The notes below the pieces were generated by a model. It searched no databases. It saw only the letters and a program-made list of their open reading frames with translations, and was not told the origin of the DNA. This document shows positions 13,681-14,426 of a DNA stretch of 64,000 bases, in pieces. Each line of letters begins with the position of its first letter. Position 1 is the first letter of the stretch. The translations under genes were made by a program, and so were the position numbers. Origin of the DNA: Eledone cirrhosa (lineage: Eukaryota); NCBI GenBank assembly GCA_964016885.1, contig OZ024760.1, forward strand, positions 186,001 through 250,000, read 5' to 3'.

Positions 13681-14426
13681 TAAGTAAGAAAAAAATTTTT
13701 TTTAAAATTTTTTTTAAAAAAATATTTTCTTATTTTACGTCCTTTATATTATTGTTCTGCATTCTCCTGCATTGAACCACCTAGGTACTATGACATAACC
13801 TGTGTATTTGCTGGCATGGGCGTGCATCTGTGCGCTTATGTTAGTTGATATATTAAATTATCTATATTTATCTCCAAATCACTGATTTGTCGAGCAAACT
13901 TGTCAAAACCACTTCTAAAAAAATTTTTTTTTGGGGTGTTAGTAGGCGTCAGTCATCTTACCATCCCATTCCTTCTAACTAGCCTCTGTGTCACGTGATT
14001 GATTCTTTAGAATCGGCCATTTGACTTGAAGCAGTGAGAATTTCGGTACATAGAATCCAGTCCTCGCAAGCTGTTCGATCTACCGAATTATTATTATTTT
14101 TATATGAGCCGCCAGTGTCCCCGCATTGCCTGGAGACTTAACTGAGAATAGACTCCCTGATGACGCAATGAATTCTCGACAGTTGGATTACGTAACTGTC
14201 TTTATCCCATTGCAGAAACTAATTAGTTGGAGTGAAAATTTAAGTAAGAAAAAAATTTTTTTTAAATTTTTTTTAAAAAAATATTTTCTTATTTTACGTC
14301 CTTTATATTATTGTTCTGCATTCTCCTGCATTGAACCACCTAGGTACTATGACATAACCTGTGTATTTGCTGGCATGGGCGTGCATCTGTGCGCTTTTGT
14401 TAGTTGATATATTAAATTATCTATAT
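13681..14426 (+). mobile_element. Non-coding HHR-bearing element with ~187-bp direct terminal repeats (560-bp period); retrozyme-like or mini-PLE
   Basis: 13681-13867 matches 14241-14426 with ~2 differences; HHR at 14152-14233; flanked by (TA)n; no credible ORF. Confidence 0.8.
14152..14233 (+). ncRNA. Type I hammerhead ribozyme
   Basis: ACTCC-CTGATGA-cGCAATG..(GACAGTT/AACTGTC hairpin)..CATTGCa-GAAA-CTAATTAG-TT-GGAGT: 5-bp stem I, intact core, palindromic stem III; predicted cut after GUU at 14228. Confidence 0.85.

What the first reader, a model, noticed from the sequence alone, without database searches (positions are those of the whole stretch)
13681..14426. Candidate 560-nt retrozyme-like non-coding mobile RNA with a well-formed hammerhead
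Seen: two ~187-bp direct repeats 560 bp apart; an intact type I HHR (14152-14233) ending just before the second repeat; no credible ORF; (TA)n on both flanks. The first repeat starts at the position equivalent to 12 nt after the predicted cleavage site (14228|14229), as expected if the template 5' end came from self-cleavage and the insert is ~1.3 monomers. Known: metazoan non-LTR retrozymes are tandem non-coding units with type I HHRs that yield circular RNAs and are thought to be mobilised by PLEs. Inference: this is such an element, possibly of an undescribed family.
Basis: partly seen in the sequence, partly recalled or inferred. Interest (0 to 1): 0.75.

Follow-up and report, generated by a model that had tools for sequence, protein, structure and literature searches.

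The report
Penelope-copied hammerhead retrozyme, two fixed ends
This is one truncated copy of a young 559-base non-coding repeat that occurs thousands of times in this animal genome and carries a predicted self-cutting RNA motif; its insertions end at two fixed points, as those of Penelope-type jumping genes do, so it is likely pasted in by their enzyme, probably from a small RNA circle.

Summary
Observation confirmed. The locus is a 1.33-unit copy of a young, dispersed family: 4,317 exact hammerhead motifs and 2,405 exact copies of the 13867/13868 junction genome-wide, arrays up to 15 units, helix II supported by compensatory changes across sister subfamilies. It is a non-LTR retrozyme, not the end of an autonomous element; no parent was found. 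This is the Penelope 'tail' footprint, explained in vitro by two internal priming sites (PMC11167929). Both arms share one haplotype; 155 of 193 arms cross the cleavage site, which shows no indel scars. Likely route: a Penelope-type enzyme primes both broken ends on one RNA, probably a circle. The claim that the 5' end marks self-cleavage is half right: starts cluster 5-30 nt downstream, not at the site. Cleavage, expression and circles are untested; this copy has one ribozyme and cannot release a monomer. The scan noted the same two-arm pattern in other families of this genome.

The parts
13536..13680 (.). left (TA)n target tract
13681..13867 (+). first repeat: 5'-truncated start of the insertion, 13 nt into the unit after the cut; lies in the family's 5'-start hotspot
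13745..13749 (+). 'short' fixed 3'-end site (unit position 69; repeated near 14308), read through in this copy
   Evidence: 258 exact ends into (TA)n; 84 of 193 arms
13750..13871 (+). 122-nt 'tail' between the two fixed ends, with two predicted hairpins (13754-13777, 13802-13853)
   Evidence: 4 of 29 pairs change on both sides in 12 representatives; z -2.9
13868..14240 (+). middle of the 559-nt unit, single in this copy
   Evidence: 40 of 40 scored matches at 99-100% identity, 1020 candidates
13991..13998 (+). E-box-like palindrome, possible internal promoter element (motif recalled; function inferred)
   Evidence: kept in 11 of 13 subfamily representatives
14099..14107 (+). TATA-like sequence about 30 nt before helix I (inferred; variable among subfamilies)
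14137..14248 (+). type I hammerhead with extended helix I (14137-14140 with 14245-14248; 14152-14156 with 14229-14233), two-part helix II (14165-14170 with 14208-14213; 14178-14184 with 14194-14200) and palindromic helix III (14218-14227); predicted cut 14228|14229
14241..14426 (+). second repeat, ending at the 'long' fixed 3'-end site (unit position 187-191): predicted reverse-transcription start of this insertion
   Evidence: 558 exact ends into (TA)n; 109 of 193 arms
14427..14881 (.). right (TA)n target tract; no target duplication can be told

Best explanation
The stretch is a 5'-truncated 1.33-unit insertion of a young, non-coding 559-nt tandem unit with a conserved hammerhead motif (a non-LTR retrozyme), which is likely copied into (TA)n tracts by the enzyme of a Penelope-like element, probably from a circular RNA. 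Inferred cycle: (1) a locus with two or more ribozymes is transcribed, possibly from a promoter inside the unit; (2) tandem hammerheads cut, likely as dimers through the palindromic helix III, and the monomer is ligated; (3) a Neptune/Nematis-type RT plus GIY-YIG protein cuts both strands of a (TA)n tract and primes one broken end at unit position 187-191 and the other at position 69; (4) each end is extended for a variable length, often across the ligation site and past one unit; (5) the two cDNA ends are joined, giving back-to-back arms, or one arm is lost, as here. Shown: copy number, youth, tandem arrays, (TA)n targeting, two fixed ends always paired unlike, one haplotype per insertion. 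Inferred: transcription, cleavage, circle, identity of the enzyme. My odds by step: retrozyme-type element 0.9; PLE machinery with two internal priming sites 0.85; circle as main template 0.55.
For: Family: 4,317 exact ribozyme 3'-strand motifs, 2,405 exact junctions, controls 0. Ends: 193 of 226 arms in 120 loci qualified (>=80% identity, not cut by a locus edge, ending at position 66-72 or 183-203); 6 qualifying arms ended elsewhere. Of 80 adjacent divergent pairs 71 join a short with a long end, 0 join like with like, 9 have an unresolved end; in loci chosen by ribozyme, not by end, 34 of 37 and 0 alike. 88 of 91 such ends run into (TA)3+. Autonomous RT+GIY-YIG elements of this genome show the same short/long ends in (TA)n with tails of about 36-51 nt in three families read by eye. 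PMC11167929 shows a purified PLE protein cutting and extending both strands and starting at two internal RNA sites that delimit the tail. One template: arm-to-arm distance ranks below 5% of between-locus distances in 35 of 44 insertions; 85% of unit pairs inside young loci are identical (n=195) against 3% between loci (n=3011). 155 of 193 arms cross the cut; 276 of 276 ribozyme sites have no indel there. Circular unit folds at -136.6 against -106.1+-6.5 kcal/mol (60 shuffles).
Against: No RNA evidence of any kind. No autonomous element with sequence likeness to the unit among 56 loci searched, so the partner is unnamed. The same paper found ribozyme mutants do not affect insertion and uncut RNA is the main substrate: linear multimers would give the same read-through and homogeneity. 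The 15-unit array L200 carries two interleaved variants and repeated blocks, and L289 has variants recurring in non-adjacent units: not simple rolling on one circle. Only 8 of 77 locus-private alleles are shared by both arms. The excess of starts just after the cut hints at some cleaved linear template. The predicted fold of the lone ribozyme pairs the core with helix III. The tail is about three times longer than PLE tails.
Confidence: 0.55

Rival explanations
1. Same element and same PLE enzyme, but the template is an uncut linear multimeric transcript from source arrays; the ribozyme is dispensable for mobility or serves another step, and long arrays grow further by DNA recombination.
For: Ribozyme mutants do not affect PLE insertion in vitro (PMC11167929); 8 of 9 tested Xenopus dimers did not cleave (10.64898/2026.07.22.740005); mosaic long arrays L200 and L289; mild excess of starts near the TATA-like site, 18 of 193 against 10.4.
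Against: Core kept in 225 of 231 units and helix II kept by compensatory change over subfamilies as little as 67-78% alike, so the ribozyme is selected; arrays such as L302 (10 units scored, both arms) are uniform; no excess at the TATA-like site in end-selected loci, 6 of 102 against 5.5.
Confidence: 0.3
2. The template is the self-cleaved linear monomer; the RT runs off its 5' end, giving starts just after the cut, and multimers arise by jumping to further monomers.
For: 10 of 35 single-armed insertions start 7-27 nt after the cut (2.2 expected, p 4e-5), only 1 in the 30 nt before it; the window copy is one more.
Against: No excess at the cut itself (2 of 193, 2.1 expected); 155 of 193 arms cross it with no indel in 276 sites; 47 of 51 multi-unit loci differ at no more than 1 of 59 common polymorphic sites, while 78% of between-locus pairs differ at 3 or more. 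The window was chosen after seeing the data and covers an A/T quasi-palindrome; several two-armed cases are fold-backs counted twice.
Confidence: 0.09
3. Ordinary partial-tandem, 5'-truncated insertion of an autonomous PLE; the unit is its 3' UTR.
For: The layout (promoter-like motifs, ribozyme, about 200 nt, (TA)n) resembles PLE 3' ends in this genome, and retrozymes are reported to derive from pLTRs. Only 49 distinct of 150 scored GIY-YIG places were examined.
Against: Junction recurs 2,405 times; arrays are pure units; none of 59 ribozyme-chosen loci or 30 variant-ribozyme loci shows the unit continuing into an ORF in the alignments read; the two relatives beside PLEs (L108, L129) are separate insertions beyond a (TA)n tract.
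Confidence: 0.03
4. A satellite spread at DNA level, or a SINE-like passenger of the RTE-type LINE it sits in.
For: Local block duplications in long arrays; the host sequence here is a LINE-like fragment.
Against: Dispersed short insertions on many contigs, variable 5' ends, fixed internal 3' ends and inverted arms match the PLE description in PMC8557442, not a LINE 3' tail or satellite turnover.
Confidence: 0.03

Closest known systems
Metazoan non-LTR retrozymes (Cervera and de la Pena 2020, PMC7229834, parts 2-4 of 6 read; Li, Clavereau and Pollet 2026, 10.64898/2026.07.22.740005, parts 1-3 of 5 read)
   Same: Non-coding tandem units, one type I hammerhead each, GC under 50%, thousands of copies, stable circular fold, PLEs in the same genome; weak base of helix II as in axolotl HHR_Amex2.
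   Different: 559 nt (above the 150-450 of the first paper, inside the 51-972 of the second); long two-part helix II; strict (TA)n targeting; two fixed ends and two-armed insertions, not described in the parts read; no matching PLE pLTR found; no RNA data.
Penelope-like elements with endonuclease: insertion structure (Craig et al. 2021, PMC8557442, passages and section 6) and two-site internal initiation (Frangieh et al. 2024, PMC11167929, parts 1-2 of 4)
   Same: Partial tandems, inverted 5'-truncated arm, a tail at one end only, AT-rich or (TA)n targets, ribozyme upstream of the 3' end.
   Different: No ORF; tail 122 nt against 30-40; arms are whole-unit multimers.
PLE minimal hammerheads (Cervera and de la Pena 2014, PMC4209133, passages)
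   Same: [quoted passage not shown]
   Different: Further A before G12; real three-pair helix III; extended helix I and II.

Membership tests
Non-LTR retrozyme | type I hammerhead in each unit | tested here: met
   (225 of 231 units keep the core); no Rfam match
Non-LTR retrozyme | short head-to-tail tandem units in many copies | tested here: met
Non-LTR retrozyme | non-coding, GC under 50% | tested here: met
   GC 0.36; longest ATG frame 55 aa on the circle
Non-LTR retrozyme | [quoted passage not shown] | tested here: not met
   this copy has one ribozyme; met by other loci of the family
Non-LTR retrozyme | self-cleavage in vitro | not testable with these tools
   needs a bench assay
Non-LTR retrozyme | linear and circular monomer RNA in vivo | not testable with these tools
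   no raw RNA reads could be laid
Non-LTR retrozyme | sequence kinship with a PLE pLTR | tested here: inconclusive
   profile of 13 unit representatives finds no PLE end at E<0.1 in 56 loci; 49 distinct of 150 scored GIY-YIG places examined
Autonomous Penelope-like element | ORF with RT and GIY-YIG | tested here: not met
PLE-type insertion | inverted 5'-truncated arm and a tail on one end only | tested here: met
   71 of 80 pairs unlike, 0 alike; 34 of 37 in end-blind loci
PLE-type insertion | tail of 30-40 bp | tested here: not met
   122 nt; about 42 nt remain unpaired in the predicted fold
PLE-type insertion | (TA)n or AT-rich target | tested here: met
   88 of 91 ends
Plant LTR retrozyme | type III hammerhead in two LTRs, PBS, PPT, 4-bp duplication | tested here: not met
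   ribozyme is type I and the 'repeats' are an array overlap

The most novel reading that the evidence does not exclude
A covalently closed 559-nt ribozyme RNA is gripped by a Penelope RT/endonuclease dimer that primes both ends of a (TA)n break at two fixed sites, brought to PLE-like spacing by looping out two hairpins of a 122-nt tail, and both enzymes roll round the same circle; the genome thus records twin rolling-circle retrotransposition of a viroid-like RNA and supplies a ready non-coding substrate for it.
Probability: 0.35. Interest if true: 0.75.

Novelty: new member of a known kind. Interest (0 to 1): 0.52.

Why it matters
PLE mobilisation of animal retrozymes through circular RNA is proposed in the papers read but supported there by shared ribozymes, co-occurrence and pLTR likeness. 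Here the insertions themselves carry the PLE two-site footprint, with exact predicted priming positions, in a family young enough (99-100% identical copies) to be active recently. That makes the route testable with the published in vitro PLE assay, and shows what a non-coding RNA needs to borrow this enzyme. The locus itself is a dead-end copy.

Tried and rejected
Rfam: no hammerhead model matches; the whole-window scan returned microsatellite-driven miRNA matches below their cut-offs. Sequencing runs: no RNA holder listed. Contigs of 4 runs of unknown kind laid on 13745-14236 show only presence; pieces in two runs labelled as other organisms are at depth 2-6 and were not used. Partner search: 49 distinct GIY-YIG places, a variant-ribozyme pattern (73 hits, 30 fetched) and a unit profile found none; L108 and L129 looked like links but are separate insertions. 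An apparent gradient at position 388 in L289 and L316 was an alignment artefact. A B-box-like match on the minus strand is within chance and was dropped. My first view that the 5' start was pure chance (note) was wrong: there is a hotspot. Search of earlier findings by sequence: nothing.

Full report
Observation. The window lies at G000:C21:186001-250000 in a 3.0-Gb genome. Two direct repeats, 13681-13867 and 14241-14426, differ by one indel and one substitution and sit between (TA)n tracts that interrupt a LINE-like fragment ('RTE-like' is recalled). Below, q is the position in the unit, q1 = 13681. The hammerhead is as described: helix I, CUGAUGA, GAAA, a three-pair helix III with a palindromic loop, and a predicted cut after GUU at 14228|14229 (q548|549). 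Rfam does not recognise it, and the lone motif's predicted minimum-energy fold pairs the core with helix III. Among 21 variants from sister subfamilies 93% of cells pair, 6 of 25 pairs change on both sides (43 cells against 11.8+-3.3; 0 of 500 shuffles), and slid controls fall to 33-50% paired. All double changes are in helix II; helix III and the 3' strand of helix I were the selection motif, so their constancy proves nothing. The extra C after A9 and the palindromic helix III are features of PLE hammerheads (PMC4209133, passages); the extra A before G12 is not described in those passages.

The family. All 40 scored matches to the middle part are 99-100% identical, from 1020 candidates. Exact counts: 4,317 ribozyme 3' strands and 2,405 copies of the 13867/13868 junction, controls 0. 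Arrays reach 15 units. 225 of 231 units keep the core. Related subfamilies of 518-594 nt align over the whole unit; a 524-nt sister has 2,062 exact motifs. The longest ATG frame on the circular unit is 55 aa. This copy holds one ribozyme, so it cannot release a monomer by double cleavage.

Ends. I mapped arms in 120 loci: 59 chosen by ribozyme on the first 89 Mb of C1, one long array, and 60 chosen by the long end. Of 226 arms, 193 qualified; 84 end at q66-72 and 109 at q183-203; 6 qualifying arms end elsewhere. Genome-wide, 258 and 558 exact ends run into (TA)n. Of 80 adjacent back-to-back pairs, 71 join a short with a long end, none joins like with like, 9 have an unresolved end; among end-blind loci 34 of 37, none alike. 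This is the PLE layout of an inverted truncated arm and a tail on one end (PMC8557442 section 6). PMC11167929 (parts 1-2) shows a purified PLE protein cutting and extending both strands and starting at two internal sites that bound the tail. Autonomous RT+GIY-YIG elements with a CX4CXXC linker (Neptune or Nematis type by that paper's criterion) are present, some young with long frames, and three families show short and long ends in (TA)n about 36-51 nt apart (read by eye). The 122-nt tail here folds into two hairpins that leave about 42 nt unpaired; that this restores PLE-like spacing is my inference.

Template. The arms of one insertion share a haplotype: 35 of 44 rank below 5% of between-locus distances. 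Within young loci 85% of unit pairs are identical, between loci 3%. 155 of 193 arms cross the cut, 95 exceed one unit and 27 exceed two; none of 276 ribozyme sites has an indel at the cut. This excludes routine jumping between different monomers and fits one circle, but also an uncut multimer from a uniform source. Against a pure circle: L200 interleaves two variants in repeated blocks, L289 has recurring variants, and ribozyme activity was dispensable in vitro. There is no editing signature.

The 5' start. Only 2 of 193 arms start within 2 nt of the cut (2.1 expected), but 34 start 5-30 nt after it (11.5 expected), and 10 of 35 single-armed end-selected insertions do (2.2 expected). Two other A/T tracts show little or no excess (9 against 10.7; 18 against 10.4). 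The window was set after seeing the data. A trimmed cleaved end, a stall at the foot of helix I and microhomology to (TA)n all fit.

Partner. No PLE end resembling the unit was found in 56 loci, which cover 49 distinct of 150 scored and 10,596 candidate GIY-YIG places. The partner and the parent are open.

Comparison. It meets every sequence-testable family-level feature of metazoan non-LTR retrozymes (PMC7229834 parts 2-4; 10.64898/2026.07.22.740005 parts 1-3); cleavage and circles could not be tested. Seven paper searches listed no description of this family or of two fixed ends in retrozyme insertions; the library lacks most subscription papers, and supplements were not read. I had noted the two-arm pattern before consulting earlier notes, which report it for 310-, 422-, 467-, 478- and 591-nt families of this genome; those are unchecked and not counted as support.

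Verdict. Real; a new member of a known kind, with a clear PLE footprint and an open, testable question on the template. Interest 0.52.

Noticed in passing
L201:523-1764, L202-L230: Sister family of about 524 nt, 72-75% alike, same two-ended layout; 2,062 exact ribozyme motifs.
   Followed up: partly
L123:5510-6419: Another retrozyme-like dimer, 459-nt unit, long helix II with a U.U base, in the (TA)n tail of a PLE; it shares a TTTATAT-TGTTCTG-hairpin motif with the short-end site of this family.
   Followed up: no
L122:1410-1450 (minus strand), also L123, L126, L129: Young PLE family (97-98% protein identity among four copies) with a variant hammerhead read by eye (U3 and A8 in the core, palindromic helix III) about 170 nt before its 3' end.
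   Followed up: no
L121, L134, L140: Autonomous PLE insertions with short and long ends in (TA)n, tails about 36-51 nt.
   Followed up: partly
L200 (G000:C4:68365000-68374900): 15-unit arm in which 6 units carry A>G ten nt after the cut, linked to T-run length, in blocks recurring at periods 3 and 8; the T-run plus A-run length stays 15 while the boundary moves.
   Followed up: partly
window 12645-13300 and 15049-16005: Broken LINE-like host with RT-like pieces and a PHD finger.
   Followed up: partly
window 42567-45916: 60-bp tandem array, 55.8 copies, 96% matches.
   Followed up: no
window 55500-64000: G/T-rich satellite of about 40 bp with extreme strand skew, running off the window end.
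   Followed up: no
window 51235-51397: Near-perfect 163-nt inverted repeat, possibly a small DNA element.
   Followed up: no
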